Below are positions 40-54,396 of a stretch of DNA of 64,000 bases, one piece after another; within the stretch, counting starts at the first letter, position 1; every line of letters starts with the position of its first letter. The stretch spans positions 41,161-105,160 of the forward strand of contig JAFQMF010000013.1 in NCBI GenBank assembly GCA_017396395.1. Direction: 5' to 3'. Source of the DNA: Clostridia bacterium. GTDB taxonomy: Bacteria > Bacillota > Clostridia > RUG12999. A model generated the notes under the pieces. The model made no database searches. It had not been told where the DNA came from and worked only from the letters and a program-made list of their open reading frames with translations. Both the position numbers and the translations under genes were made by a program.

Positions 40-288
40 ATTTTAATAAAAAGGCTATGACGGAAAGAGTAGCTTAGGATTCGCATTTAAAGAGAGAGAA
101 ACATTTGCTGGGAGTTTCTTAATGTGCCCTTAGTGAAGACCATTCCCGAGCTGCAGTGCCCAAAATTACAGTAAGTGCTGCCGTAGCACCCTGCGTTAAA
201 GGTGAAATTAAGTGAAATTCAAGGTGGAACCGTGCAAAAAGCACCCTTGTCTGCGGGATTATTCCCATATGACAAGGGTTTTTTATTT
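40..288 (+). promoter_or_regulatory. T-box riboswitch leader (Thr specifier ACC) with intrinsic terminator
   Basis: AGAGA-containing stem I region; GAAGACCATT specifier context gives ACC followed by a purine; T-box sequence AAGGTGGAACCGTGC at 222-236; terminator hairpin 244-278 followed by TTTTTTATTT; sits upstream of thrS. Confidence 0.75.
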
Positions 289-318
289 CGGCTGTCACCA
301 AAACAAGGAGTAGAGGAA

Positions 319-2082
319 ATGAAAATTATTTACAATGACGGACAGGTTATGGAATGTCCACAGGATCAAGAGCTTCATATTATTCGCCATACTGCTGCAC
401 ATATTATGGCACAAGCGATTAAAAGACTTTTCCCTGCAGCAGATTTTGCCTATGGCCCCGCTACAGAAAAAGGGTTTTATTATGATGTGGATTTTGGCGA
501 TGTTAAGCCCACTGACGAGGACCTTGTAAATATCGAAAAAGAAATGAAGAAAATCGTCAAAGAAAATCTTCCTATAAAATCATTTATTCTCCCTAGAGAA
601 GAAGCTATTGCTTTAATGGAAGAAAGAGGCGAAAAATATAAGGTTGAGCATATCGGTGACCTTGACCCTGACGCTAAAATCAGTTTTTATCAGCAGGGTG
701 AGTATATTGATATGTGTACAGGACCTCATCTTTGCTATACAAAGGCACTTAAGGCATTTAAAATTACTGGTCAGTCAGGTGCTTATTGGAAAAATGATAA
801 AAACAATACTATGCTTACCAGAATTAATGGTATTGCATTTCCCTCTCAGCAGGAGCTTGATGATTATCTTAAGCTTTTAGAGGAAGCTGAGAAAAGAGAC
901 CATCGTAAAATCGGTAAGGAAATGGGGCTGTTTATGATGGCAGACGAAGCTCCCGGTTTCCCCTTCTTCCTTCCAAAGGGTATGGCTTTGAAAAATGCTC
1001 TTATTGACTATTGGAGAAATATCCATACAAGAGAAAATTATGTGGAAGTTTCTACTCCACTTATTATGAACAGACATTTGTGGGAAACAAGCGGTCACTG
1101 GGACCATTACAAGGACAATATGTATTCCACACTTATTGACGAAGAAACCTACTGCGTAAAGCCTATGAACTGTCCCGGCGGTGTTATGGTATATGCTTCA
1201 AAGCCCCATAGCTATCGCGAGCTTCCTTTAAGAGTGGGCGAGCTTGGTCTTGTTCACCGTCACGAGCTTAGAGGTGCACTTCACGGTCTGTTCCGTGTTC
1301 GTTGCTTTACTCAGGATGATGCCCATATCTTTATGCGTCAGAGTCAGATCACAAATGAAATTGTAAATGTTGTACATCTTATAAATGAAGTTTATGAAAA
1401 GTTTGGCTTTAAGTATTTTGTTGAGCTTTCTACCCGTCCTGCGGACAGTATGGGAAGTGACGAGGATTGGGAAGCAGCAACAGAAGGTCTTAAAAATGCA
1501 CTTGAATCTCTTAACCTTCCCTATATTATAAATGAGGGTGACGGTGCATTCTACGGACCTAAAATTGACTTCCATTTAGAAGATTCTCTTGGAAGAACAT
1601 GGCAGTGCGGAACAATTCAGCTTGACTTCCAGATGCCTATAAACTTTGGTCTTGAATATGTGGACGAAAATGGAGAAAAGCAGCGTCCTATTATGATTCA
1701 CCGTGTATGCTTTGGCTCAATTGAACGCTTTATCGGTATTATTACAGAGCATTTTGCAGGTAAATTCCCTGTATGGCTTGCTCCTGTGCAGGCAAAGGTG
1801 CTATTGGTTTCCGAAAAGAGTGCTGATTATGCAAACGATATTTATGAGAAATTAAGAAATGCGGGAGTTCGTTGCGAGCTTGATGACAGAAATGAAAAAA
1901 TCGGTTATATGATTCGCGAAGCTCAGGTTGTGGACCGAGTTCCTTATATGCTTATTATCGGTCAGAGTGAAGTTGAAAACGGCAATATTTCCGTAAGAAA
2001 CAGAGATACTCTTGCAACTGAAACTATGACAATAGATGAGTTTATTGAAAAGATTACTAAGGAAATCAAGGAAAGAGTATAA
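319..2082 (+). CDS. thrS: threonine--tRNA ligase
   Basis: ORF 202-2082 translation has class II aaRS motifs and the ThrRS TGS/editing/catalytic/anticodon-binding order; start set at ATG 319 with AAGGAG RBS at 304-309, downstream of the T-box terminator. Confidence 0.93.
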   Translation: MKIIYNDGQVMECPQDQELHIIRHTAAHIMAQAIKRLFPAADFAYGPATEKGFYYDVDFGDVKPTDEDLVNIEKEMKKIVKENLPIKSFILPREEAIALMEERGEKYKVEHIGDLDPDAKISFYQQGEYIDMCTGPHLCYTKALKAFKITGQSGAYWKNDKNNTMLTRINGIAFPSQQELDDYLKLLEEAEKRDHRKIGKEMGLFMMADEAPGFPFFLPKGMALKNALIDYWRNIHTRENYVEVSTPLIMNRHLWETSGHWDHYKDNMYSTLIDEETYCVKPMNCPGGVMVYASKPHSYRELPLRVGELGLVHRHELRGALHGLFRVRCFTQDDAHIFMRQSQITNEIVNVVHLINEVYEKFGFKYFVELSTRPADSMGSDEDWEAATEGLKNALESLNLPYIINEGDGAFYGPKIDFHLEDSLGRTWQCGTIQLDFQMPINFGLEYVDENGEKQRPIMIHRVCFGSIERFIGIITEHFAGKFPVWLAPVQAKVLLVSEKSADYANDIYEKLRNAGVRCELDDRNEKIGYMIREAQVVDRVPYMLIIGQSEVENGNISVRNRDTLATETMTIDEFIEKITKEIKERV

Positions 2083-7860: not shown

Positions 7861-9519
7861 ATGAAAAATGCAGAAAAATATCAAAGACAATATTTTAATC
7901 CGCCTGTAAACGAGTACAATTGGACAAAAAAAGAATTTATTGATAAAGCTCCCATATGGTGCTCAGTTGACCTTCGTGACGGCAATCAGGCACTTATTAT
8001 TCCTATGTCTCTTGAAAAGAAGCTGGAATTTTTTAAGCTTCTAGTTAAAATTGGATTTAAAGAAATTGAGGTGGGCTTTCCTGCCGCTTCCGAAACTGAA
8101 TATACTTTTTTGCGTACTTTAATAGATAACAACTTAATTCCCGACGATGTTACTATTCAGGTGCTTACTCAATCAAGGGAACATATAATTAAAAAGACTT
8201 TCGAGGCACTTAAGGGTATAAAAAAAGCCATTGTTCACGTTATAAATCCCACTTCATATGTTCAGCGTAATCAGGTTTTTAAAGCTACCAAAGTAGAAAC
8301 TGTTTCTGTTGCTCGCGAAGGTGCAAGACTTTGTATGGAATATGCCAAAAAGCACACAGGTGATATTCGTTTTCAGTATTCTCCCGAATCCTTTACAGGT
8401 ACTGAGCCTGAATTTGCACTTCGTGCAATTAATGAGGTTTTAGAGGTATGGAAACCAACTCCCGAAAAAAAGGCAATAATAAACCTTCCTGTAACAGTTG
8501 AGCTTTCACTTCCTCATATATATGCAAATCAGGTAGAATACATATGTGAAAATATAAACTATCGTGACAGTGTAATAATATCACTTCATCCCCATAATGA
8601 CAGAGGCTGCAGTGTGGCAGACGCAGAGCTTGGACTTCTTGCAGGTGCTGACAGGGTAGAAGGTACTCTTTTTGGTAATGGTGAACGTACAGGTAATGTG
8701 GATATAGTTACACTTGCTCTTAATATGTATTGTCACGGTGTAGATCCACTGCTTGATTTTTCCAATTTGCCTGAAATTGCAAAAATATATGAGGAGCAAA
8801 CAGGCAGACCTATATATGACAGACAGCCTTATGCCGGAGAGCTTGTATTTGCGGCTTTTTCAGGTTCACATCAGGATGCTATTACCAAAAGTCTTAAATG
8901 GCATAACAGAAATAAACCTGACCATTGGAGCGTGCCCTATCTTCCCCTTAATCCCAGTGATATTGGCAGAGAATATGAATCGGATGTTATTCGTATCAAC
9001 TCTCAGTCCGGCAAGGGTGGCATAGGATATCTTCTGGAAACAGGTTTTGGATATGTACTTCCCGCTAAAATGCGTGAAGATGTAAGCTATAAGGTGAAAA
9101 GTGTTTCGGACAAAAAACGAGCAGAACTGCTTCCAACAGATGTGCTTGACATTTTCACCAGGTATTATATTAATATAGAAACCCCATACAAGCTTATTGA
9201 TTTCCATCATATCCGTGACGGCAAAGTAACTGCTGTAGTTACACTGGAGGACCACGGACAGCTTCGTGAAATAACGGGTACAGGTAACGGACGACTTGAC
9301 TCAGTAAGTAATGCTATCAAAACCCATCTTGGTATAGATTTTTCTGACCTTACCTATCAGGAACACGCCCTTTCTACAGGCTCCTCCTCACAGGCGGTTA
9401 CATATCTTAGTATTACTCTTCCCGACGGCAGTGTAAGCTGGGGTGCAGGAGTGCATGACGATATTATTACATCTTCTGTACTTGCTCTGTTCTCTGCAAT
9501 TAACCGAACACAAAAATAG
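7861..9519 (+). CDS. leuA: 2-isopropylmalate synthase (long form with C-terminal regulatory domain)
   Basis: DLRDGNQA, HPHNDRG and LFGNGERTGN motifs of the HMGL-like TIM barrel, plus a LeuA-dimer C-terminal region. Confidence 0.88.
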   Translation: MKNAEKYQRQYFNPPVNEYNWTKKEFIDKAPIWCSVDLRDGNQALIIPMSLEKKLEFFKLLVKIGFKEIEVGFPAASETEYTFLRTLIDNNLIPDDVTIQVLTQSREHIIKKTFEALKGIKKAIVHVINPTSYVQRNQVFKATKVETVSVAREGARLCMEYAKKHTGDIRFQYSPESFTGTEPEFALRAINEVLEVWKPTPEKKAIINLPVTVELSLPHIYANQVEYICENINYRDSVIISLHPHNDRGCSVADAELGLLAGADRVEGTLFGNGERTGNVDIVTLALNMYCHGVDPLLDFSNLPEIAKIYEEQTGRPIYDRQPYAGELVFAAFSGSHQDAITKSLKWHNRNKPDHWSVPYLPLNPSDIGREYESDVIRINSQSGKGGIGYLLETGFGYVLPAKMREDVSYKVKSVSDKKRAELLPTDVLDIFTRYYINIETPYKLIDFHHIRDGKVTAVVTLEDHGQLREITGTGNGRLDSVSNAIKTHLGIDFSDLTYQEHALSTGSSSQAVTYLSITLPDGSVSWGAGVHDDIITSSVLALFSAINRTQK

Positions 9520-9550
9520 AACAACTACCAAACTTAAAAGGAGGGATCTT

Positions 9551-11437
9551 ATGCATTTTAAAAAAATAATTTGCTTAGTTTTCTTTTTTGCACTTATTTT
9601 TATCCTTTGCACAAAAGCAGAAATCCTTCCTATAGATTTATCAATTCAGGGGCAGACTGCCGCACAAGGACAGGTTATTGAAGTTCCTGTTACTATTAGT
9701 GCTAACTCCAATGCAAGTGTAGGCACCTTCAGAATTGAATATGACTGTTCAGTGCTTGAATATATGAGTATGGTGCGTACAGGTTGTGTATCACTTGGTA
9801 ACTCAGGGCTTGACCCCATAATCGGAAACCCTGACCAGTTAGGTTTTTACTTTATTTCAAAAAATCTTGGCACAACTCCCCTTACTGCAGGAGGCAATCT
9901 TTTCTATCTACGATTTGCCGTAAAGGAGGATGCTCCAAACGGCAGTTACCCTATTTCCATTATTATACCACCTGGGTGCGGGCTTCAGGATATGGAAGGA
10001 AACGCCTTTTCACTACGCATTATAAATAGTCAAATTGAAATAGATACTCCCCCCGACGGCAAACATATTATCAAAACAGCCTTCGGCTCTGAAGGCGGAA
10101 GCAGTATTTCATACGGAGGAAGATACGGGCAGGGAGAAACACTATCCCTTTCTGCTACTCCTGCTACAGGCTACAGATTTTCCCATTGGGAATGTGAAAA
10201 TGGACATATTTCAAACCCCTATTCTGCCACCTCCACATATACTGCAGGAAATGAAAATGATACCATTTACGCACATTTTAAGCTTAAAACATTTTCTATT
10301 TCAGCATCTGTGGAAGGAAATCAAGGTGGCAGTATTGTGTGTGACAAAGAACATGCCCAATACAACTCAAGTGTTACTGTTACGCTTTTCCCTGATGAAG
10401 ATTATAAGGTTTCTGCCTTTACCGTAAACGGAAAGGATTACCTTGCTTCCCTTAATAATAACACTATAACATTAAATTCTATTCGCTCAGCTCAGGATAT
10501 TAAGGTAACATACAGCTGGTGCGGTGAAGAAATTATAGATAGTATTATTCCCCTCAGGGCAAGTCAAATTTCCTTTTCAAACCAATTAAAAACTATTGAT
10601 ATAACCGCAGATATAACCACTCCGTCTGTGGGATTTGCCCTTAATCTTCCTAACGATGCATATGTTCAGGAAACGGGCAAAAATATAATTACAGGTATGC
10701 TGGGGGATAAAAAATATTTAGTTGCAAAAAAAACAAAGGGGGAAAATCAATCCTTCCTTTTATATGTGAAAAGTGAAAATACTACTTATACATACACAGT
10801 AAATGTTTCCTTTACCCCAGAGTATTTATCAGAAAATATTATATCAGAAATAATCCCTCTTCGCAGTTACGATGCATCCTTCAATAATGAAACAAGGAGC
10901 ATTTTTGTAAAGGCAAGTCTTTTTGATTCTTCTGCAGGTTTTGCTCTTAACCTTTCAAATGGCAGTTATCAGGTGGAAAAGGGCAAAGGAATAGTGTGTG
11001 GCAAGGAAAACGGTAAGCTTTATCTTGTTGCCAAAAAGTCAAACGGACTTTCCCAGAGTTTTAAAGTATTTATAACAACTGAAAGCGGGTACGAATATAC
11101 CTACCATGCTACAATTGAATTTACTGGGGAAAATTACTCCTGTACAGATGTTATAACAGGAATATCTTTGCTAAGATGCGAAAACGGAAGCTTTTCAAAT
11201 GAAACAAGAACAGTTAACATAACCTCACTTAGCCAAGCTCCTTCTTGCGGTGTGTATATTCAAAGCGAAGGGGAAATTGCTGTTTCCACAGATAAAGGTA
11301 TTATTAAAGGCATAAAAGACGGCAAGCTATATTATGTAGTAAAAAGGGTAAATGGACAACAGCAAAACTTTGATATTTCCATTACTACAAATAAGGGGTA
11401 TAAATACACCTTTAATGTAACAGTGAATTTTTCTTAA
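9551..11437 (+). CDS. secreted cohesin-domain protein with Flg_new-like repeats and three tandem ~100-aa C-terminal repeats
   Basis: signal peptide MHFKKIICLVFFFALIFILCTKA; cohesin-like segment VIEVPVTISANSNASVGTFRIEYDCSVLEY...GSYPISII; GYRFSHWECENG repeat; three repeats beginning IIPLRASQISFSNQ / IIPLRSYDASFNNE / ISLLRCENGSFSNE; RBS AAAGGAGGG. Confidence 0.85.
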   Translation: MHFKKIICLVFFFALIFILCTKAEILPIDLSIQGQTAAQGQVIEVPVTISANSNASVGTFRIEYDCSVLEYMSMVRTGCVSLGNSGLDPIIGNPDQLGFYFISKNLGTTPLTAGGNLFYLRFAVKEDAPNGSYPISIIIPPGCGLQDMEGNAFSLRIINSQIEIDTPPDGKHIIKTAFGSEGGSSISYGGRYGQGETLSLSATPATGYRFSHWECENGHISNPYSATSTYTAGNENDTIYAHFKLKTFSISASVEGNQGGSIVCDKEHAQYNSSVTVTLFPDEDYKVSAFTVNGKDYLASLNNNTITLNSIRSAQDIKVTYSWCGEEIIDSIIPLRASQISFSNQLKTIDITADITTPSVGFALNLPNDAYVQETGKNIITGMLGDKKYLVAKKTKGENQSFLLYVKSENTTYTYTVNVSFTPEYLSENIISEIIPLRSYDASFNNETRSIFVKASLFDSSAGFALNLSNGSYQVEKGKGIVCGKENGKLYLVAKKSNGLSQSFKVFITTESGYEYTYHATIEFTGENYSCTDVITGISLLRCENGSFSNETRTVNITSLSQAPSCGVYIQSEGEIAVSTDKGIIKGIKDGKLYYVVKRVNGQQQNFDISITTNKGYKYTFNVTVNFS

Positions 11438-12083: not shown

Positions 12084-13103
12084 TTATCTGAAAAGTTTCA
12101 TAAATGCCTTTGCCATATTAGGCGCAAAGGATTCTGCACCAGGCCCTAAAATAATAAGACCATTTCTACCATCGTCAAAATAATTTACCTTCTGGTTAAG
12201 TGCCTCTGCAATAGCTCTGAGAGGAAGTAAAGTTCTTCCGTTAATTATCTGTGCAGGCACATCAATGGGAATATTTTCACCGCAAACAGAAATTTCTTTT
12301 GCACCAATTTTTATAATAATGCCCGCTAAATCAGTTTCAATAATAACCTTGTTATTTGCTTCGTCAAATCTCACTACTGCACCAAGGCTTTCAGCAACAA
12401 ATCTTGCAGGAAGAAGTGTTCTTCCGTTTTTTACAACAGGAGCTACATCAAGAGGAGTCTCTACTCCCTTAATAAACGCCTTATTGCTTCCCACATACAT
12501 AATAATATTTTCGCTGTCTTCCGCGTCAGGAAGCACCTCTACAGGACCTTCTGCCGAAGCGGCTCCGCCAATAATAGTGGCATTTGCATCAGCATAACGA
12601 ACACGGCAATCAAAACAACCGGGAACTTCCGATCCGTTTACATAGCAGGTCTGTATAATTGCAGAATCAAGATTGTCATATACCGTTCTCCACACACCCA
12701 CTCGCTGTACAGGGTCAGAGATTGTCCACAAATACTGCCCCGCTGAAAATGCCTGCCCCGACCCAATTGAAATTCCAACCCAGGAATTGTCTTTAAAGTC
12801 AACCCATTCTCTTGTAGCAATGGGTTTTGTAGCAATAGTACTTTCATAACTATCTGCCCATACATAAAGTCTGATAGTAAGTGCACCTACAGAATCCCCA
12901 TAGCTGGGACAGTTCATATCAAAAGCCGAAAATGGTTTATCTATAGACAACTTTTGTGCTATTACAGTGCCTGTTTTTAATTCGTTTGCAGTATGGGTTG
13001 CAGCCGTATCATAAAGATATACAAGTTCACCTGCTGCCATAGTGGCTAATCCGCAACTGAATAAAATTGCAACAATTGTTAAAACAATAAAAAGTTTTTT
13101 CAT
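12084..13103 (-). CDS. copper amine oxidase N-terminal (stalk) domain repeat protein, secreted
   Basis: signal peptide MKKLFIVLTIVAILFSCG; two C-terminal repeats NGRTLLPARFVAESLGAVV / NGRTLLPLRAIAEALNQKV typical of the Cu_amine_oxidN1 domain; start set at internal ATG with GGAGG RBS. Confidence 0.8.
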   Translation of the reverse strand: MKKLFIVLTIVAILFSCGLATMAAGELVYLYDTAATHTANELKTGTVIAQKLSIDKPFSAFDMNCPSYGDSVGALTIRLYVWADSYESTIATKPIATREWVDFKDNSWVGISIGSGQAFSAGQYLWTISDPVQRVGVWRTVYDNLDSAIIQTCYVNGSEVPGCFDCRVRYADANATIIGGAASAEGPVEVLPDAEDSENIIMYVGSNKAFIKGVETPLDVAPVVKNGRTLLPARFVAESLGAVVRFDEANNKVIIETDLAGIIIKIGAKEISVCGENIPIDVPAQIINGRTLLPLRAIAEALNQKVNYFDDGRNGLIILGPGAESFAPNMAKAFMKLFR

Positions 13104-13398
13104 ATAGGAAATACCTCCAGGTGTGTTAATCATTATATATTTTATCATATTTTTATATAATTCACAATACTTTTTCCTTACAAAAAAAAACTAAAATTTT
13201 GTGCAGATTAACTAAAACAATATATCATATAAAAAACAACCAATTTTTTCGGTAATATGACTAATTTTTAACAAAATTTTTAGTTGTTATTCTATACTGG
13301 GATACTTGACGCAAATTACAAAAAGTAGTATAATATAAACTAATTACTATATATTATTTATAATCACAATAATTATAAAATATTTGGAGGTTTTAAAA

Positions 13399-29954: not shown

Positions 29955-29988
29955 AAAAAAAGCCGAGATTTATCTCGGCTTTTTTTAC
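29955..29988. terminator. bidirectional rho-independent terminator
   Basis: AAAAAAAGCCGAGATTTATCTCGGCTTTTTTT. Confidence 0.8.
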
Positions 29989-31070
29989 GCTACTTTATTT
30001 TCTCCGTTTGCGTAGTTTATAAAAACTCCCTGCTGTACATTATAGCAATATACGCAAAAAGACAAGCCTTTCCCCTTATCTTCTACTGAATAGGCTTCCA
30101 TTAAAACACCACTTGCTACAAGATTATCCCCCTGAAAAACAGGAGTTACTCTATACATAACGTGATTTCCTGTTTTGTCAATATAGCTGTCCACCATATT
30201 TTCAAAGGGTAACATTCCTTCCACGTTCATATACCTTGTGCCGGTAATTAAATTACGGGGATTGGCATTTTCTCCTGTTAACTGAAATCCCAGAAGGTGA
30301 CATCTGTTATAAAGGTATTTTCCCGAAATGAAATCATATTGTCTGTTTTTCCACCCTGTAGGCTTAATACTGCTTATATTCCCTCTTTTTTCAGTTGGCA
30401 TTGTATCCAAGGATACAGAAGCCACACATACATCGCATCTTCCAAGACCATCTAAACTGCTGTAATATTCAAAAGAGGCAGGAATAATTTCATAATCCTT
30501 AAAAAAAGGTTTATTATTATTTATTTTTATATACGCACTTTTGGAGTATTCTTTTAACTCTCCCAAAAGATAATCGTATTCCCCCTGCTGGAAAAGGTCA
30601 CGGATAATGTAAACCTTTTCTGTAGCTTCGTCCCATGCCACCCCAAGATTAAAGCTCTCTGCAATAAAACGGATGGGAAGCATCGTCCTGTCATTATAAA
30701 CAGAAGGAGCAACATCCAAAGTAAACAAGGCTCCGTTTAAATAAGCTTTTTTACTGTCTATAATAAGCTTTATAGTATCATTTTCAAGAGTAAGAACAGC
30801 CGTTTTCTCTTTTCCTTTCCAGTCCACCTTGCCACCAAAGGCTTCAATAATAGCACGAACAGGCACTAATGTTCTGCCTGTTTTTATTATAGGCTCTGTA
30901 CCTCTGCCTGGGTCAATTTCCTGATTTTCTCCGTTTACTGCCATTAAAGGATTGCCAATCTGCATACTTATTACAACATCTTCAGGCTTTTGGGATGCAA
31001 TTACATGAGGAGATAAAAGGAGGAAGCATATTAAAAATGCAAATACTCTATAAATTCTGTTTTTGTTCAT
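29985..31070 (-). CDS. secreted DNA/RNA non-specific endonuclease (EndA/Endonuclease_NS_2-like) fused to a copper amine oxidase N-terminal stalk domain
   Basis: signal peptide MNKNRIYRVFAFLICFLLLSPHVIAS; CuAO-N repeat RTLVPVRAIIEAFGGKV / RTMLPIRFIAESFNLGV; nuclease block YNRCHLLGFQLTGENANPRNLITGT aligns to the FDRGHLLGYAL...NPKNI region of EndA. Confidence 0.78.
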   Translation of the reverse strand: MNKNRIYRVFAFLICFLLLSPHVIASQKPEDVVISMQIGNPLMAVNGENQEIDPGRGTEPIIKTGRTLVPVRAIIEAFGGKVDWKGKEKTAVLTLENDTIKLIIDSKKAYLNGALFTLDVAPSVYNDRTMLPIRFIAESFNLGVAWDEATEKVYIIRDLFQQGEYDYLLGELKEYSKSAYIKINNNKPFFKDYEIIPASFEYYSSLDGLGRCDVCVASVSLDTMPTEKRGNISSIKPTGWKNRQYDFISGKYLYNRCHLLGFQLTGENANPRNLITGTRYMNVEGMLPFENMVDSYIDKTGNHVMYRVTPVFQGDNLVASGVLMEAYSVEDKGKGLSFCVYCYNVQQGVFINYANGENKVA

Positions 31071-33575: not shown

Positions 33576-33611
33576 TTAAAAACCTTGCAAGAATTCTTGC
33601 AAGGTTTTTGT
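33576..33611 (-). terminator. rho-independent terminator downstream of purC
   Basis: AACCTTGCAAGAATTCTTGCAAGGTT hairpin; T-run on the minus strand. Confidence 0.75.
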
Positions 33612-33636: not shown

Positions 33637-34326
33637 TTAAAGTCCCATTTTTTCAAGTAACATCTTAGCACAGTCAATCTGATTAGGAATGTTACCATTT
33701 TCATCACGAACTCTCCAAATATCAGGAGTAATTTCATCAGCAACATACATTTTGCCGTTTTCGTCATATCCTATTTCAATTTTAAAGTCAATAAGAGTAA
33801 GTCCTAAAGGAGCAAGTTCATTTTTAAGAACTTCGCCAACTCTAACTAAAATATCTAAAGCTTCGTCGTACTGGCCTTCCTTTAAAAGACCCTTCATAAT
33901 GCAAATTCTTTCGCTGATAAGCGGGTCTCCCTGAATATCGTCCTTAAGAGTAACTTCGCTGTATGGAGGATTGAAAACAATTCCTTCGTCTAATGTAAAA
34001 CGACGGCACATACTTCCGGCTGTAAAATAACGAAGTACAAATTCAAGCTTGGGAACTGTAAGGTTACGAACCTGCATAAGTCCCTTTTCAATATCAGAGT
34101 TGATATAGTGTGTGGGAATACCGTTTTTCTCCATAAGCTCAAAGAAATACTTGGAAATTATAAGGCCTATTTTGCCTTTTCCTTCAACGCTGCCGCCAAC
34201 AGTGTTAGAACCTGGGTCAAATACGCCGTTTTCTCCTGTGGCACTGTCCTTGAATAAAAGGCTTACAATATTGGTTTCTTCATCAAGAAGAACATCTTTG
34301 GTTTTACCTGTGTAAAGTGTTTTCAT
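33637..34326 (-). CDS. purC: phosphoribosylaminoimidazole-succinocarboxamide synthase
   Basis: MKTLYTGKTKDV N-terminus and SAICAR synthetase motifs; start set at internal ATG with GGAGGAGA RBS. Confidence 0.9.
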   Translation of the reverse strand: MKTLYTGKTKDVLLDEETNIVSLLFKDSATGENGVFDPGSNTVGGSVEGKGKIGLIISKYFFELMEKNGIPTHYINSDIEKGLMQVRNLTVPKLEFVLRYFTAGSMCRRFTLDEGIVFNPPYSEVTLKDDIQGDPLISERICIMKGLLKEGQYDEALDILVRVGEVLKNELAPLGLTLIDFKIEIGYDENGKMYVADEITPDIWRVRDENGNIPNQIDCAKMLLEKMGL

Positions 34327-34349: not shown

Positions 34350-35330
34350 TTATTCCCATTCGATAGTTCCAATGGGCTTGGGTGTTAAGTCAAGAAGTAC
34401 ACGGTTAATACCGGGAACCTCTGCAGTAATTCTGTCTGTAATTTTATGAAGAACATCATAAGGAATTTCCTCGATAGTTGCTGTCATAGCATCTACAGTA
34501 TTTACTGCACGAATAATTGCAGGCCATCCTTCATAACGCTTGTCGTCTTTTACGCCTACGCTTTTAAAATCAGGAACTGCAATAAAGTACTGCCATACTT
34601 TTCCTGCAAGTCCGCATTTATCAAACTCCTCACGAAGAATTGCATCAGCTTCACGAAGAGCACTTAGTCTGTCACGGGTAATAGCCCCAAGACAACGAAC
34701 ACCAAGACCAGGTCCAGGAAATGGCTGTCTTTCTACCATTTCTGCAGGAAGCCCAAGAGCCTTACCTACAACTCTTACTTCATCCTTATAAAGAAGCTTT
34801 ACAGGCTCAACAAGCTCCAGCTTCATATCCTCAGGAAGTCCGCCAACATTGTGGTGAGCCTTAACTCCATCACTTTCTAAAATATCAGGATAAATTGTTC
34901 CCTGAGCAAGAAAATCAACATCCGTAAGTTTTTTGGCTTCCTCATTGAAAACTTCAATAAATTCGCCGCCAATAATTTTTCTCTTCTTTTCGGGCTCTGC
35001 AACACCTTTCAGCAAATCAAGAAATCTGTCTGTTGCATCAATATAAATAAGGTTAGCGTCAAGTCCATTTTTAAAAACTTCAATAACCTGCTCGCTTTCC
35101 CCTTTACGCATAAGTCCGTGGTTAACATGAACACAAATAAGCTGTTTTCCGATTGCCTTTATTAAAAGTGCCGCAACAACAGAGCTATCCACACCGCCGG
35201 AAAGAGCAAGTAAAACCTTTTTATCTCCTACCTGATTACGAACAAGAGCAATCTGCTCTTCAATAAACTTGTCCGCAAGTTCCTTTGTGGTAATGCGTTG
35301 CATATTTTCAGGTCTAACATTTGGATTCAT
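34350..35330 (-). CDS. guaA: GMP synthase ATP-pyrophosphatase/dimerisation portion only (GuaA C-terminal domain, stand-alone)
   Basis: PP-loop SGGVDSSV; C-terminal ...KPIGTIEWE, the canonical GuaA end; no glutamine amidotransferase domain upstream in any frame; AAGGAGG RBS at the internal ATG. Confidence 0.82.
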   Translation of the reverse strand: MNPNVRPENMQRITTKELADKFIEEQIALVRNQVGDKKVLLALSGGVDSSVVAALLIKAIGKQLICVHVNHGLMRKGESEQVIEVFKNGLDANLIYIDATDRFLDLLKGVAEPEKKRKIIGGEFIEVFNEEAKKLTDVDFLAQGTIYPDILESDGVKAHHNVGGLPEDMKLELVEPVKLLYKDEVRVVGKALGLPAEMVERQPFPGPGLGVRCLGAITRDRLSALREADAILREEFDKCGLAGKVWQYFIAVPDFKSVGVKDDKRYEGWPAIIRAVNTVDAMTATIEEIPYDVLHKITDRITAEVPGINRVLLDLTPKPIGTIEWE

Positions 35331-35671
35331 TCTTTTTCCTCCTTTAAGTATATTATCCAAAAAAATAAGCAAAGAAAATATTTTCCAAAACCTGTTTGGT
35401 AAATATATAGAAGCTACCTTTATTATCCTATAAATATTATACATCAGTTTTTTTTACTTGTCCACAAAAATTTTTAATAATTTTACATAAATTTTTTCTT
35501 TGTTTTTTGGTGGATACCAATAATTGTGCATTTTCTAAAGATTCATAAGCTTTTTCAGGTTTATAAATTTCCATAATATATGTATTAAGCAGGCGTAAAT
35601 GTTTCTTTTTCAAGATTTTTGAACAAATATTACAATTTAATTAAATTTTTTTAAATTTTTTCAAAAAAAGA

Positions 35672-35700
35672 CTTGCAATTGTAATATTTATGTAGTAAAA
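35672..35700 (+). promoter_or_regulatory. sigma-A type promoter of the dcw cluster (TTGCAA-17-TAAAAT)
   Basis: hexamers read from sequence, 64 bp upstream of mraZ. Confidence 0.5.
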
Positions 35701-35707
35701 TAATAGT

Positions 35708-35760
35708 AAAGTGGATGAAAGTGGAGTTATAATAAACAAAAGTGGAGAAAGCGAGGTGGT
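35708..35760 (+). promoter_or_regulatory. MraZ-box direct repeats (AAAGTGGA x3 plus GGTGG) between promoter and mraZ
   Basis: GTGGA at 35711, 35721 and 35742, and GTGG at 35756; first two copies 10 bp apart; position matches the MraZ autoregulatory sites described in other bacteria. Confidence 0.55.
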
Positions 35761-35763
35761 AAT

Positions 35764-52441: not shown

Positions 52442-53182
52442 CTATTTACCTACCATATCATTCATATTATAAAGGCCTGCATCTTTATCTGCAATAAAGC
52501 TAGCTGCAGATATTGCACCTTCAGCAAAAAGAGCTCTGCTATGTGCCTCGTGCTTTAATGTAATAGTCTGAGAATCGGTGGAAACCAGCACCTCGTGGAT
52601 ACCTACAATATTCCCCCTTCTCACTGCGGAAATGCCTATTTCCCCTGACTGTCTTTTGCCTTCTCTTCCAAAAATAAGCTGAGCCTTTTCCCTGACCTCT
52701 TTAATAGCATTTGCTATTAATAAGGCTGTTCCGCTTGGAGCATCCAGTTTTCTGTTATGGTGTGTTTCTACAATTTCAATATCCGCTTCCGGCATAGTTT
52801 TTGCAACATTCTTAGCAAGCTCTACCAAAAGTGCTACACCAAGTGACATATTTGCAGACATAAAAACAGGTATGCTTTTACTTGCCTTTAATATATATTC
52901 TTTTTCATCTTCGCTGTGCCCTGTTGTTGCCATAACCACAGGAATACCTCTGCTTACTGCAAAATGCATAACATCTTTTGTAATACTGTGGTGAGAAAAG
53001 TCAATTATAACATCTGCATCTTCAATAATGTCATCAGGAGATGTATATGTGGGATAATTACAGCTTGCAGGCACATTTATATCCACTGCCGCCGCAAGAG
53101 AGCTTCCCATAACACCTTTTTCCAAAAGTGCTATAACTTCTTTTCCCATATAGCCATTTGAGCCAATAACAATTACTTTCAT
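52442..53182 (-). CDS. dapB: 4-hydroxy-tetrahydrodipicolinate reductase
   Basis: MKVIVIGSNGYMGKEV Rossmann N-terminus; DapB C-terminal domain; start at internal ATG with GGAAGAAA RBS. Confidence 0.88.
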   Translation of the reverse strand: MKVIVIGSNGYMGKEVIALLEKGVMGSSLAAAVDINVPASCNYPTYTSPDDIIEDADVIIDFSHHSITKDVMHFAVSRGIPVVMATTGHSEDEKEYILKASKSIPVFMSANMSLGVALLVELAKNVAKTMPEADIEIVETHHNRKLDAPSGTALLIANAIKEVREKAQLIFGREGKRQSGEIGISAVRRGNIVGIHEVLVSTDSQTITLKHEAHSRALFAEGAISAASFIADKDAGLYNMNDMVGK

Positions 53183-53198
53183 ACTTTTTCTTCCTTTG

Positions 53199-54086
53199 TT
53201 AGTTGATTGCTCCAAACTTTTTCATTAATTCATAGAGCTTGTTTGCATTTTCTTCTTCCATCTCAGTAAGAGGAAGTCTGAGAAAGTTTTTGCAAAATCC
53301 CATTTTTGCCATTGCTGCCTTAACCGGAATAGGGTTAACCTCACTAAACAGTGCGTTAATAAGAGGTAAAAATTCAAGCTGAAGCTTTGCACTTTCCTTA
53401 ATATTTCCTGCACGGAAATTGTCACAAATTGCAACCGTTTCCTTTGGAAGAACATTTGAAAGCACTGAAATTACACCTTTACCACCAAGAGACATAATAG
53501 GCACAATCTGGTCATCATTACCCGAATAAATATCCATTTTATCCCCTACAAGCGATGCAATTTCTGCAATTTGAGAAATATTGCCGCTTGCCTCTTTAAT
53601 AGCAGAAATATTAGGATGTTCTGACAATGCAAGACAAGTTTTGGGAGTAATATTCACTCCTGTGCGGGAAGGAACATTATATAAAATCACAGGTGCCGTA
53701 CTTTTGTCTGCAATTTGTGAAAACATTTTTATAAGTCCCTTTTGTGTTGCTTTGTTGTAGTATGGAGTAACAACTAAAACCCCGTCTGCACCTGCTTTAC
53801 AAGCATAATCGGTCAAGTCAAGAGCATAGTCCGTATCGTTACTTCCTGTGCCTGCAATTACCGGCACTCTGCCTGCTGATTTATCCACTACAAATTTAAT
53901 AGCTTCTTTATGCTCCTCATCAGTAAGAGTTGAGGATTCGCCTGTTGTTCCGCAAACCACAAGAGCATTTATCCCCTTTTCAATTTGCCAGTCAACAAGC
54001 TTTCCAAAAAGCTCATAATTTACTCCATTTTCATCTAAAGGAGTAATAAGAGCCGTTGCCACGCCTTCAAATACCGTTTTTTTCAT
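53199..54086 (-). CDS. dapA: 4-hydroxy-tetrahydrodipicolinate synthase
   Basis: DHDPS pattern GTTGES...AGTGSN... with the Schiff-base Lys region (NVPSRTGVNI). Confidence 0.9.
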   Translation of the reverse strand: MKKTVFEGVATALITPLDENGVNYELFGKLVDWQIEKGINALVVCGTTGESSTLTDEEHKEAIKFVVDKSAGRVPVIAGTGSNDTDYALDLTDYACKAGADGVLVVTPYYNKATQKGLIKMFSQIADKSTAPVILYNVPSRTGVNITPKTCLALSEHPNISAIKEASGNISQIAEIASLVGDKMDIYSGNDDQIVPIMSLGGKGVISVLSNVLPKETVAICDNFRAGNIKESAKLQLEFLPLINALFSEVNPIPVKAAMAKMGFCKNFLRLPLTEMEEENANKLYELMKKFGAIN

Positions 54087-54104: not shown

Positions 54105-54352
54105 AATAAAAAATAGTCGTATAAGCTACGACTATCATTACTTTTCTATTATACCCCTTAATGACAGGGGGAATATTTTCAAAAAGTAAGATAGCTCTCC
54201 GCTTAAAGCGACAACAAAGTAAATATTATTTTACTTTGCCAGATCAGACTTACGCCTCGCCTGTCTTCGGCACCTGTACCTTTCTTTACCGCTGACTTTT
54301 GCGAAAGCCCTTTTATAGCGGAAATACTATTTACAAAATGCACCTCTATCAC
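54105..54352 (-). promoter_or_regulatory. lysine riboswitch (L-box) with intrinsic terminator, leader of dapA-dapB-lysA
   Basis: on the minus strand: GATAGAGGTGC P1 start; conserved GGTGCCGAAG; closing GGAGAGCTATC; then terminator ATAGTCGTAGCTTATACGACTAT plus TTTTTTATT immediately before the dapA RBS. Confidence 0.7.
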
Positions 54353-54396
54353 TTTCTATATAATACCATATTTTTTTCTTTTTGTCAACTGTTTTA

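What the first reader, a model, noticed from the sequence alone, without database searches (positions are those of the whole stretch)
34350..35330. GMP synthase encoded only as its ATP-pyrophosphatase half (split guaA), paired with purC
The ORF begins at the linker or PP-loop region (…VGDKKVLLALSGGVDSSV…) and ends with the canonical GuaA C-terminus …KPIGTIEWE. There is no glutamine amidotransferase domain in any frame in the ~430 bp between this gene and the divergent mraZ promoter. Two-subunit GMP synthases (GuaAa/GuaAb) are well known in archaea but unusual in Firmicutes. Either the GATase subunit is encoded elsewhere, or the enzyme uses ammonia or borrows another amidotransferase, or this is a decayed gene. 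The AAGGAGG RBS exactly at the domain boundary argues for a functional stand-alone subunit.
Basis: partly seen in the sequence, partly recalled or inferred. Interest (0 to 1): 0.5.

Follow-up and report, generated by a model that had tools for sequence, protein, structure and literature searches.

The report
Glutaminase-less GMP synthase paralog in Clostridia
This is an intact, strongly conserved gene for only the ATP-using half of GMP synthase; it belongs to a paralog family of gut anaerobes that has lost the glutamine-splitting domain and probably makes GMP from free ammonia, so it is not a broken or freshly split guaA.

Summary
Window 34350-35330 (-) encodes a 326-aa protein that matches only positions 194-512 of the full GuaA profile. 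It has an AAGGAGG ribosome-binding site, purC starts 23 nt downstream, and no glutamine amidotransferase (GATase) is detectable anywhere in the 64 kb.

The "split guaA" reading is only partly right. The gene belongs to an old family under strong purifying selection: always 326-327 aa, 85-94% identical across at least 566 species-level genomes of gut and rumen Clostridia, dN/dS about 0.05, and GC3 tracking each host genome.

Its sister group (100% bootstrap, 72% identity) is a ~435-aa Bacteroidales GuaA paralog with a vestigial, triad-less GATase stub. That paralog lies directly downstream of a canonical full-length guaA. The same tandem, canonical guaA followed by the 326-aa gene, occurs in two Clostridia relatives.

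All ATP/XMP catalytic motifs are kept, and the AlphaFold model superposes on solved GMP synthase ATP-pyrophosphatase (ATPPase) units.

Best explanation: a second, glutaminase-independent GMP synthase that uses free ammonia. This is inferred, not shown. I could not test whether this genome also carries a canonical guaA or an unlinked GATase.

It is a new variant of a known enzyme and of moderate interest.

The parts
34350..35330 (-). 326-aa GuaA-like ATP-pyrophosphatase plus dimerisation domain, with no GATase domain (stand-alone GMP synthase paralog)
   Evidence: TIGR00884 at 438 bits; PRK00074 matched only over positions 194-512; Pfam GMP_synt_C. 53% identical to E. coli GuaA 212-525 and to the M. 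jannaschii ATPPase. AlphaFold pLDDT 87, TM 0.87-0.89 to 7SBC, 1GPM and 6JP9.
35338..35344 (-). Shine-Dalgarno sequence AAGGAGG, 7 nt upstream of the ATG
   Evidence: Read directly from the sequence.
35436..35464 (-). Promoter-like site TGGACA-17-TATAAT (11 of 12 matches), about 105 nt upstream of the start codon
   Evidence: Consensus scan. This is only a pattern match: the number of sites in the region is no higher than in shuffled sequence.
33637..34326 (-). purC-like SAICAR synthetase (229 aa), starting 23 nt after the guaA-like stop codon; probably in the same transcript
   Evidence: Pfam SAICAR_synt at 143 bits. TIGR00081 scores 137.9, below its cut-off of 189.9. It has its own GGAGGAG ribosome-binding site.
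33578..33609 (-). Intrinsic-terminator-like hairpin after purC (it reads as a terminator on both strands)
   Evidence: 14-15-bp stem followed by a T-run.
35331..35763 (.). 433-bp intergenic region between the gene and the divergent mraZ; contains no coding remnant of a GATase and no known riboswitch
   Evidence: tblastn and HMM searches negative. Rfam negative. Leader fold z = 0.57.

Best explanation
The gene encodes a working, stand-alone GMP synthase built only from the ATP-pyrophosphatase core and the C-terminal dimerisation domain.

Proposed mechanism:
- Like every GMP synthase ATPPase unit, it should form a dimer, bind ATP-Mg and XMP, and adenylylate XMP at O2 through the PP-loop (SGGVDSS) and the lid-loop K-x-HHN residues.
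- The adenylyl group is then displaced by ammonia to give GMP, AMP and PPi.
- There is no glutaminase in cis, and its nearest relatives carry only a dead glutaminase stub. The ammonia is therefore most likely free NH3 from the ammonia-rich gut or rumen. That is the reaction of EC 6.3.4.1, not EC 6.3.5.2.

It belongs to a distinct, slowly evolving paralog family shared by gut Clostridia (no N-terminal domain) and Bacteroidales (vestigial N-terminal domain). Where context is informative, the family sits next to a canonical glutamine-dependent guaA. Here it would therefore act as a second, glutamine-sparing isozyme expressed together with purC.

Shown: the domain content, the intactness, the selection, the family relationships and the tandem arrangement in relatives.
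Inferred: the use of free ammonia, the role as an isozyme, and the presence of a canonical guaA elsewhere in this genome.
For: Domain content and absence of GATase.

Catalytic motifs. All are invariant in 123 clade members: SGGVDSS, GTIYPD..E, K-x-HHN, KDEVR, PFPGPGL, the dimer-partner Arg, and K..T.EWE. Their roles in ATP/XMP binding and adenyl-XMP formation come from bioRxiv 10.1101/808618.

Fold. pLDDT 87, with only the lid loop disordered, as in crystal structures. TM 0.87-0.89 to 7SBC and 1GPM, and the model covers 94-96% of the archaeal ATPPase subunits 6JP9 and 2DPL.

Selection. All sequences are 326-327 aa. Median dN/dS is about 0.05 with dS above 1.3 or saturated. GC3 ranges from 0.23 to 0.73 and follows the host flank GC of 32-57%. 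In the two genomes that hold both genes, the stand-alone copies are 93% identical while the canonical GuaA copies are 65% identical.

Sister family. The Parabacteroides gordonii 435-aa protein is 72% identical. It shares HVNHG, KVWQYF, VPDFKSVGV and the loss of the second Pro of KPP. Its N-terminus matches only positions 1-75 of 188 of guaA_Nterm and lacks Cys, His and Glu. Bootstrap support for the joint family is 100%.

Tandem with canonical guaA: L054 and L057, P. gordonii L095, and L102.

Precedent. The isolated M. jannaschii ATPPase subunit makes GMP from NH4Cl with a Km of 4.1 mM (bioRxiv 10.1101/2022.02.27.481963). ATPPase activity is independent of GATase in all GMP synthases studied (PMC10526850).

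Purine context. purC lies 23 nt downstream.
Against: - No enzymology exists for any member of the family, so ammonia use is an inference.
- The alpha12 motif KDEVR is fully retained. Its Asp and Glu form the salt bridges to the GATase in canonical enzymes, so a partner GATase is not excluded. The motif is equally retained in relatives with dead GATase domains, so it does not discriminate.
- Several positions that are otherwise near-invariant are changed throughout the clade: FVD to HVN, lid S/T to A, KPP to KP(I/V), and MGD.R.Y to KDDKRYEGW. These changes could mean altered specificity rather than mere adaptation to NH3.
- The rest of this organism's genome could not be searched. Neither the presence of a canonical guaA nor the absence of a free GATase subunit is established for it.
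- Canonical GMP synthases have poor affinity for ammonium (review PMC10526850), so physiological use of NH3 would need an improved Km.
Confidence: 0.55

Rival explanations
1. True two-subunit GMP synthase. The 326-aa protein is the B subunit and receives channelled ammonia from a separately encoded class I GATase elsewhere in the genome, or from the GATase domain of a canonical GuaA, as in archaea.
For: - Archaeal precedent: PH1346/PH1347 and the two-subunit M. jannaschii enzyme, whose complexes are transient.
- The GATase-facing alpha12 motif KDEVR is invariant.
- The lid loop is shortened as in the M. jannaschii subunit.
- Archaeal subunits need not be adjacent, so absence from the neighbourhood is weak evidence.
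Against: - No GuaA-type GATase was found in the 64-kb window or in 83 of 85 related loci (1.13 Mb). The only hits are complete canonical guaA genes in L054 and L057, plus two weak unrelated hits.
- The clade does not group with the archaeal subunit B sequences.
- The sister family keeps a fused but catalytically dead GATase stub that retains the docking arginines (ARAIRA). This stub would occupy the docking surface and argues that the lineage gave up glutamine hydrolysis.
- No conserved partner gene appears in the neighbourhood analysis.
Confidence: 0.2
2. Neofunctionalised paralog. The family keeps the adenylylation chemistry but acts on another substrate, uses another nucleophile, or works as a regulatory or hetero-oligomeric partner of canonical GuaA.
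For: - Clade-wide replacement of residues that are near-invariant in GMP synthases: HVNHG, VKAHHN, KP(I/V)GT and KDDKRYEGW.
- Much stronger conservation than the co-resident canonical GuaA, 93% against 65%.
- It coexists with, and lies in tandem with, a complete guaA, so it is not needed merely to supply the canonical reaction.
- A conserved clade-specific N-terminal peptide, xNVRPExMxRITTxELA.
- cysK lies directly upstream in 21-23 of 85 loci.
Against: - All residues known to bind XMP, ATP and PPi and to catalyse adenyl-XMP formation are retained.
- It scores well above the curated equivalog-domain cut-off for GuaA.
- In the window it is linked to purC.
- The cysK neighbour is ordinary housekeeping synteny in one subset of genomes, and its identity (about 82%) tracks that of the other neighbours.
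Confidence: 0.15
3. Decayed gene, recent gene fission, or a sequencing or assembly artefact that removed the GATase domain.
For: None beyond the missing domain.
Against: - The same 326-327-aa architecture appears in at least 120 protein clusters at 90% identity and in at least 566 species genomes from independent assemblies.
- dN/dS is about 0.05.
- It has its own ribosome-binding site and a conserved N-terminus.
- There is no GATase relic in any upstream frame.
Confidence: 0.02

Closest known systems
Bacteroidales ~435-aa GuaA paralog (for example Parabacteroides gordonii, GCA_003439895.1, annotated 'glutamine-hydrolyzing GMP synthase')
   Same: Sister family, with 72% identity over the ATPPase part and 100% bootstrap support. 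It shares the family signatures HVNHG, KVWQYF, VPDFKSVGV and loss of the second Pro of KPP. It comes from gut anaerobes. It lies directly after a canonical guaA, as the Clostridia copy does in L054 and L057.
   Different: It keeps a ~120-aa vestigial GATase stub without the Cys-His-Glu triad, and its lid loop is 5 residues longer. The window protein has no N-terminal domain at all, only a conserved ~20-aa peptide. Neither has been characterised, as far as my literature searches show.
Archaeal two-subunit GMP synthetase, ATPPase subunit (GuaA subunit B; M. jannaschii 6JP9, P. horikoshii PH1347 2DPL/3A4I)
   Same: A stand-alone ATPPase plus dimerisation domain of ~310 aa. 53% identity to the M. 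jannaschii subunit (46% to the P. horikoshii subunit in the structural alignment), the model covers 94-96% of the solved chains, and the lid loop is short. The isolated subunit is active with NH4Cl.
   Different: No partner GATase gene was found. It does not group with the archaeal subunits in the trees. It has an extra conserved N-terminal peptide and family-specific substitutions. It occurs in bacteria, which reviews describe as having only the two-domain type.
Canonical bacterial two-domain GuaA (E. coli 1GPM; EC 6.3.5.2)
   Same: The ATPPase and dimerisation halves are homologous (about 50-53% identity, TM 0.87), with all catalytic motifs present.
   Different: It lacks the whole N-terminal class I GATase (profile positions 1-193), so it cannot hydrolyse glutamine in cis. 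The database name 'glutamine-hydrolyzing GMP synthase' given to family members is therefore unsupported.
Single-domain NH3-dependent NAD+ synthetase (NadE) versus glutamine-dependent NadE
   Same: A functional analogy only. Both are PP-loop adenylylating amidoligases that exist in a glutaminase-fused form and a glutaminase-free, ammonia-using form. There is a distant fold match (for example 1XNG).
   Different: A different family and substrate. For NadE the ammonia-dependent form is biochemically established; here it is inferred.

Membership tests
GMP synthase ATP-pyrophosphatase unit (TIGR00884 guaA_Cterm / Pfam GMP_synt_C) | Scores above the curated cut-off of the equivalog-domain model and covers it end to end | tested here: met
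   438.3 bits against a cut-off of 338.75, model positions 1-310 of 310. GMP_synt_C scores 117 bits against 27.
GMP synthase ATP-pyrophosphatase unit (TIGR00884 guaA_Cterm / Pfam GMP_synt_C) | PP-loop SGGVDS(S/T) | tested here: met
   SGGVDSS at residues 44-50, invariant in all 123 clade members.
GMP synthase ATP-pyrophosphatase unit (TIGR00884 guaA_Cterm / Pfam GMP_synt_C) | Lid-loop motif IK(T/S)HHN (Lys, His and His are catalytic) | tested here: inconclusive
   The sequence is VKAHHN. K, H, H and N are kept, but the T/S is Ala in 122 of 123 clade members and the loop is 8 residues shorter than in E. coli.
GMP synthase ATP-pyrophosphatase unit (TIGR00884 guaA_Cterm / Pfam GMP_synt_C) | Alpha11 (YPD..E) and alpha12 (KD(D/E)V(K/R)) motifs | tested here: met
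   GTIYPDILES and YKDEVR are essentially invariant in the clade.
GMP synthase ATP-pyrophosphatase unit (TIGR00884 guaA_Cterm / Pfam GMP_synt_C) | C-terminal XMP-binding loop KPPxTxE(F/W)x and the dimer-partner Arg | tested here: inconclusive
   The sequence is KPIGTIEWE. K, the first P, T, E, W and the terminal E are kept, but the second Pro is Ile or Val in 122 of 123 members. The Arg (R265) is invariant.
GMP synthase ATP-pyrophosphatase unit (TIGR00884 guaA_Cterm / Pfam GMP_synt_C) | Fold: PP-loop Rossmann-like core plus C-terminal dimerisation domain | tested here: met
   AlphaFold pLDDT 87.1 and pTM 0.85. Foldseek TM 0.87-0.89 and rmsd 1.4-2.6 A to 7SBC, 1GPM, 6JP9 and 2DPL.
GMP synthase ATP-pyrophosphatase unit (TIGR00884 guaA_Cterm / Pfam GMP_synt_C) | Catalyses XMP + ATP + N-donor to GMP + AMP + PPi | not testable with these tools
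   Needs an enzyme assay or genetic complementation.
Glutamine-hydrolysing two-domain GuaA (PRK00074, EC 6.3.5.2) | N-terminal class I GATase with a Cys-His-Glu triad in the same polypeptide | tested here: not met
   The match starts at profile position 194. No GATase is found in any frame upstream or anywhere in the window.
Archaeal-type two-subunit GMP synthetase (GuaAa + GuaAb) | Stand-alone ATPPase subunit of ~310 aa | tested here: met
   326 aa, aligning to 6JP9 residues 5-310.
Archaeal-type two-subunit GMP synthetase (GuaAa + GuaAb) | A separately encoded ~190-aa GuaA-type GATase subunit in the same genome | tested here: inconclusive
   Absent from the 64-kb window and from the flanks of 85 related loci (1.13 Mb). 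The remainder of the genome could not be searched.
Archaeal-type two-subunit GMP synthetase (GuaAa + GuaAb) | Phylogenetic affiliation with archaeal subunit B sequences | tested here: not met
   In the neighbour-joining trees the clade groups with the Bacteroidales paralog (100% bootstrap) and not with M. jannaschii or the Bilamarchaeum sequence P0227.
Ammonia-dependent GMP synthase activity (EC 6.3.4.1) | Physiological use of free NH3 with no glutaminase involved | not testable with these tools
   Only indirect support: there is no GATase, the sister family has a dead GATase, and the M. jannaschii ATPPase alone uses NH4Cl.

The most novel reading that the evidence does not exclude
The family is not just an ammonia-using copy of GuaA. 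It would be a PP-loop enzyme that kept XMP-type adenylylation but changed its nucleophile, its substrate or its partner. That would explain why it coexists with, and is far more conserved than, the canonical guaA in two phyla of gut anaerobes, and why otherwise invariant active-site-loop residues are replaced throughout the family (HVN for FVD, Ala in the lid, loss of the cis-Pro in KPP).
Probability: 0.1. Interest if true: 0.75.

Novelty: new variant of a known kind. Interest (0 to 1): 0.45.

Why it matters
Reviews of GMP synthetase state that bacterial enzymes are two-domain and that only archaea have separate subunits (PMC10526850, PMC9312489). This finding shows a large bacterial family, shared by Clostridia and Bacteroidales, that has discarded or inactivated the glutaminase yet is under stronger constraint than the canonical enzyme.

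If it is ammonia-dependent, guanine nucleotide synthesis in abundant gut and rumen anaerobes can bypass glutamine. That would save the ATP spent by glutamine synthetase, and it fits the known reliance of these organisms on ammonia.

It also matters for annotation and metabolic models. Family members are named 'glutamine-hydrolyzing GMP synthase', which the domain content does not support. The family offers a natural system for studying how an amidotransferase synthetase domain works without its glutaminase.

Tried and rejected
1. Hidden or frameshifted GATase upstream. tblastn with four GATase domains and a profile HMM over all six-frame ORFs found nothing.

2. Purine or other riboswitch in the 433-bp leader. 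Rfam at gathering and at permissive thresholds found nothing, and the fold z-score is 0.57.

3. A conserved partner gene next to the family. Clustering 1,111 ORFs from 85 loci gave only cysK (23 loci), an F420-ligase-like 398-aa protein (15), tyrosine integrases (12), an OPT transporter, a PqqD-like protein and a ~700-aa glutamine-synthetase-like protein (8). No amidotransferase appeared.

4. Archaeal origin. Rejected by the trees.

5. Recent horizontal spread as the reason for 85-94% identity. Rejected because synonymous sites are saturated and GC3 is adjusted to each host.

6. Proving that a canonical guaA co-occurs in the same genomes, by looking up close homologues of the L054 canonical GuaA. 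The assemblies returned (CAVIJI, CAVFJW and ENA contigs) did not match any of the 80 genomes carrying the stand-alone gene, so this led nowhere.

7. The Aristaeella hokkaidonensis homologue. Only a 3.3-kb metagenome contig could be fetched, and its upstream neighbour is a thioredoxin-like membrane protein, not a GATase.

8. A more divergent dimerisation domain as a sign of insulation from canonical GuaA. There is no clear difference for the window protein.

9. Literature searches for a bacterial glutaminase-less or ammonia-dependent GMP synthase found no description.

Full report
**1. The observation**

Window 34350..35330 (-) holds a 326-aa ORF.
- Pfam finds the GMP synthase C-terminal domain and PP-loop families.
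- NCBIfam places it on TIGR00884 (guaA_Cterm) at 438 bits against a cut-off of 339.
- The full-length model PRK00074 matches only over positions 194-512 of 512.

The start codon is preceded by AAGGAGG (35344..35338). An upstream in-frame ATG at 35444 lies beside a promoter-like -10 box, and no homologue uses it.

purC (33637..34326) starts 23 nt after the stop codon and has its own ribosome-binding site. A strong hairpin terminator follows at 33578-33609. The 433 bp up to the divergent mraZ contain no GATase remnant. The whole 64-kb window has no GuaA-type GATase by tblastn, by a purpose-built GATase HMM, or by Pfam scans of 30 further ORFs. There is no riboswitch and no unusually structured leader.

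**2. Not a pseudogene, a fission or an artefact**

- The best 120 database clusters are all 325-327 aa apart from four longer gene calls (337-381 aa), and 90-94% identical apart from one 356-aa call at 81%.
The best 80 are 85-92% identical.
- They come from gut and rumen MAGs labelled Clostridia, Oscillospiraceae, Acutalibacteraceae, Christensenellaceae, Ruminococcus, Aphodoplasma, Congzhengia, Ornithomonoglobus and others.
- A subclade at 72% identity includes the cultured rumen bacterium Aristaeella hokkaidonensis.

Thirteen orthologues all have exactly 326 codons. Median dN is 0.11, dS exceeds 1.3 or is not computable, and dN/dS is about 0.05. GC3 of the gene runs from 0.23 to 0.73 and follows the flanking GC of 32-57%. 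The gene is therefore an old resident of these genomes under very strong purifying selection, and it did not spread recently. Gene neighbourhoods differ widely.

**3. What the family is**

Among 50%-identity representatives, the closest sequences outside the clade are GuaA homologues whose GATase is degenerate. The catalytic Cys is replaced by Gly, His and Glu are missing, or the domain is cut to about 120 aa.

Following the nearest of these (P0131) led to a Bacteroidales family of about 435 aa, including a named protein from Parabacteroides gordonii.
- That protein is 72% identical to the window protein over the ATPPase part.
- It shares HVNHG in place of FVD(H/Q)G, KVWQYF, VPDFKSVGV, and loss of the second proline of the C-terminal KPP motif.
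- Its N-terminus matches only positions 1-75 of the 188-position guaA_Nterm model and lacks the triad.

In neighbour-joining trees with 200 bootstraps, and with mosaic or rogue sequences removed:
- window-type Clostridia + Aristaeella-type Clostridia + the Bacteroidales paralog form a clade at 100%;
- the two Clostridia groups join at 87.5%.

The M. jannaschii subunit B and a DPANN archaeal sequence fall elsewhere.

**4. Coexistence with a canonical guaA**

In two Clostridia relatives (L054, L057), a complete guaA of 512 or 519 aa with an intact Cys-His-Glu triad lies immediately upstream of the 326-aa gene. In those two genomes the canonical proteins are 65% identical and the stand-alone ones 93% identical.

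In P. gordonii the 435-aa paralog starts 50 bp after a canonical 506-aa guaA. The same tandem is seen on another Bacteroidales contig.

The family is therefore a paralog that accompanies the canonical enzyme, at least in these genomes, and is not one half of a split gene. In the other 83 loci no canonical guaA lies within the stored flanks.

**5. How it probably works**

All residues that studies of P. falciparum and E. coli GMP synthetase tie to catalysis are invariant in 123 clade members:
- ATP and PPi binding (PP-loop; Lys and Arg of KDEVR);
- adenyl-XMP formation (Asp of YPD; Lys-x-His-His of the lid);
- XMP binding (C-terminal Lys, Glu and terminal Glu; the Arg from the partner subunit).

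The AlphaFold model is confident (pLDDT 87, pTM 0.85) apart from the lid loop. It superposes on solved GMP synthase ATPPase units at TM 0.87-0.89. I therefore take the XMP adenylylation and amination chemistry to be preserved.

The nitrogen source is the open point. The isolated ATPPase subunit of M. jannaschii makes GMP from NH4Cl with a Km of 4.1 mM. In all GMP synthases studied, ATPPase activity does not need the GATase. The protein has no glutaminase, no GATase gene is nearby, and the sister family keeps only a dead stub. Together with the ammonia-rich habitat (established knowledge of rumen and colon chemistry, not tested here), these points make direct use of free ammonia the most economical reading. 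I put it at about 0.55.

**6. Rivals**

- A trans-acting GATase partner (0.2). It is not excluded because the GATase-facing KDEVR motif is intact and archaeal subunits can be unlinked. The phylogeny, the missing neighbour and the dead stub in the sister family argue against it.
- A changed function (0.15). It is suggested by family-wide replacement of otherwise near-invariant residues, by the conserved N-terminal peptide, and by conservation that exceeds that of the canonical enzyme. The retained substrate-binding residues and the purC linkage argue against it.
- Decay or artefact (0.02). Refuted.

**7. Comparison with what is known, and novelty**

The protein works like the ATPPase subunit of archaeal two-subunit GMP synthetases and like the synthetase half of bacterial GuaA. 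It passes the membership tests for the ATPPase unit, with two motif variants. It fails the defining test for a glutamine-hydrolysing two-domain GuaA. It does not affiliate with the archaeal subunit B sequences.

Two recent reviews say bacterial GMP synthetases are of the two-domain type. My searches found no description of a bacterial glutaminase-less or ammonia-dependent family. Databases simply name these proteins 'glutamine-hydrolyzing GMP synthase'.

I rate it a new variant of a known kind, with interest 0.45. The enzyme class is familiar and the proposed mechanism has precedent. The cross-phylum paralog family, its exceptional conservation and its loss of the glutaminase are not described, and the hypothesis is directly testable.

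Noticed in passing
L045, L046, L058 (integrase ORF about 95 bp after the gene's stop), plus L011, L047, L049, L063, L064, L074, L076, L077; also L102 3546-4658: Tyrosine integrases, with a small HTH gene family also recurring in the related loci, lie just downstream of the stand-alone gene (upstream in L074) in 11-12 of 85 related loci, and downstream of the Bacteroidales paralog in L102. The 3' end of guaA is a known attachment site for integrative elements (PMC5704250). The highly conserved 3' end of this paralog seems to serve the same role.
   Followed up: partly
P0131 and the P0412-P0513 group; L103 3501-4808 and 4869-6176; L102 2014-3306: Some Bacteroidales ~435-aa proteins look mosaic. 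They are 88-100% identical to the P. gordonii paralog over the first two thirds, but resemble canonical GuaA in the C-terminal third. One contig carries two 435-aa copies in tandem, and the C-terminal ~60 residues shown for the first copy are identical to those of the P. gordonii canonical GuaA. This could be gene conversion between tandem copies or metagenome assembly chimeras.
   Followed up: partly
50%-identity representatives P0134, P0135, P0137, P0139, P0142, P0155, P0161, P0168, P0170, P0174, P0210, P0221 and others: 43 of about 111 near-full-length GuaA representatives closest to the query carry an N-terminal domain without the catalytic Cys (usually Gly), and mostly without His and Glu. 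They are scattered over the tree. Loss of glutaminase function in GuaA homologues therefore looks frequent and possibly recurrent.
   Followed up: partly
window 33637-34326 (-): The purC next to the gene is short (229 aa) and scores 137.9 bits on TIGR00081, below the curated cut-off of 189.9, although Pfam SAICAR_synt is clear. It may be a divergent PurC.
   Followed up: no
L054 8234-9772 and its relatives P0285-P0404: The canonical GuaA of this Ruminococcus-like group has HHNKVKMP where nearly all GMP synthases have HHNVGGLP in the lid loop. In most relatives it sits in a purC-purA-purB-guaA operon.
   Followed up: no
L071 (Candidatus Spyradenecus, Lentisphaerota), L030 (Spirochaetaceae), L027 ('uncultured Enterobacteriaceae'): MAGs labelled as non-Firmicutes carry the 326-aa gene at 86-89% identity. 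This could be real inter-phylum transfer or mis-binning.
   Followed up: no
window 48-251 (+) and 202-2082 (+): A T-box leader (103.7 bits) lies directly upstream of, and overlaps the listed GTG start of, a class II aminoacyl-tRNA synthetase ORF that has a threonyl/alanyl second additional domain (probably thrS).
   Followed up: no
window 54184-54356 (-), with 53199-54086 and 52442-53215 (-) downstream: A lysine riboswitch (81 bits) lies ahead of an operon that includes dapB (dihydrodipicolinate reductase).
   Followed up: no
window 9443-11437 (+), 12084-13148 (-), 29985-31070 (-): A cohesin-domain protein, and two proteins with copper-amine-oxidase N-terminal-like domains, one of them fused to a non-specific endonuclease domain. 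These are typical cell-surface proteins of cellulosome-type Clostridia.
   Followed up: no
8 related loci, for example L061 7671-9785 (-): A ~700-aa glutamine-synthetase-like gene (only weak matches to the GlnA and type III GS models) lies near the stand-alone gene in 8 of 85 loci. cysK is directly upstream in 21-23 loci. This is probably lineage synteny, but both genes concern assimilation of inorganic N and S.
   Followed up: partly
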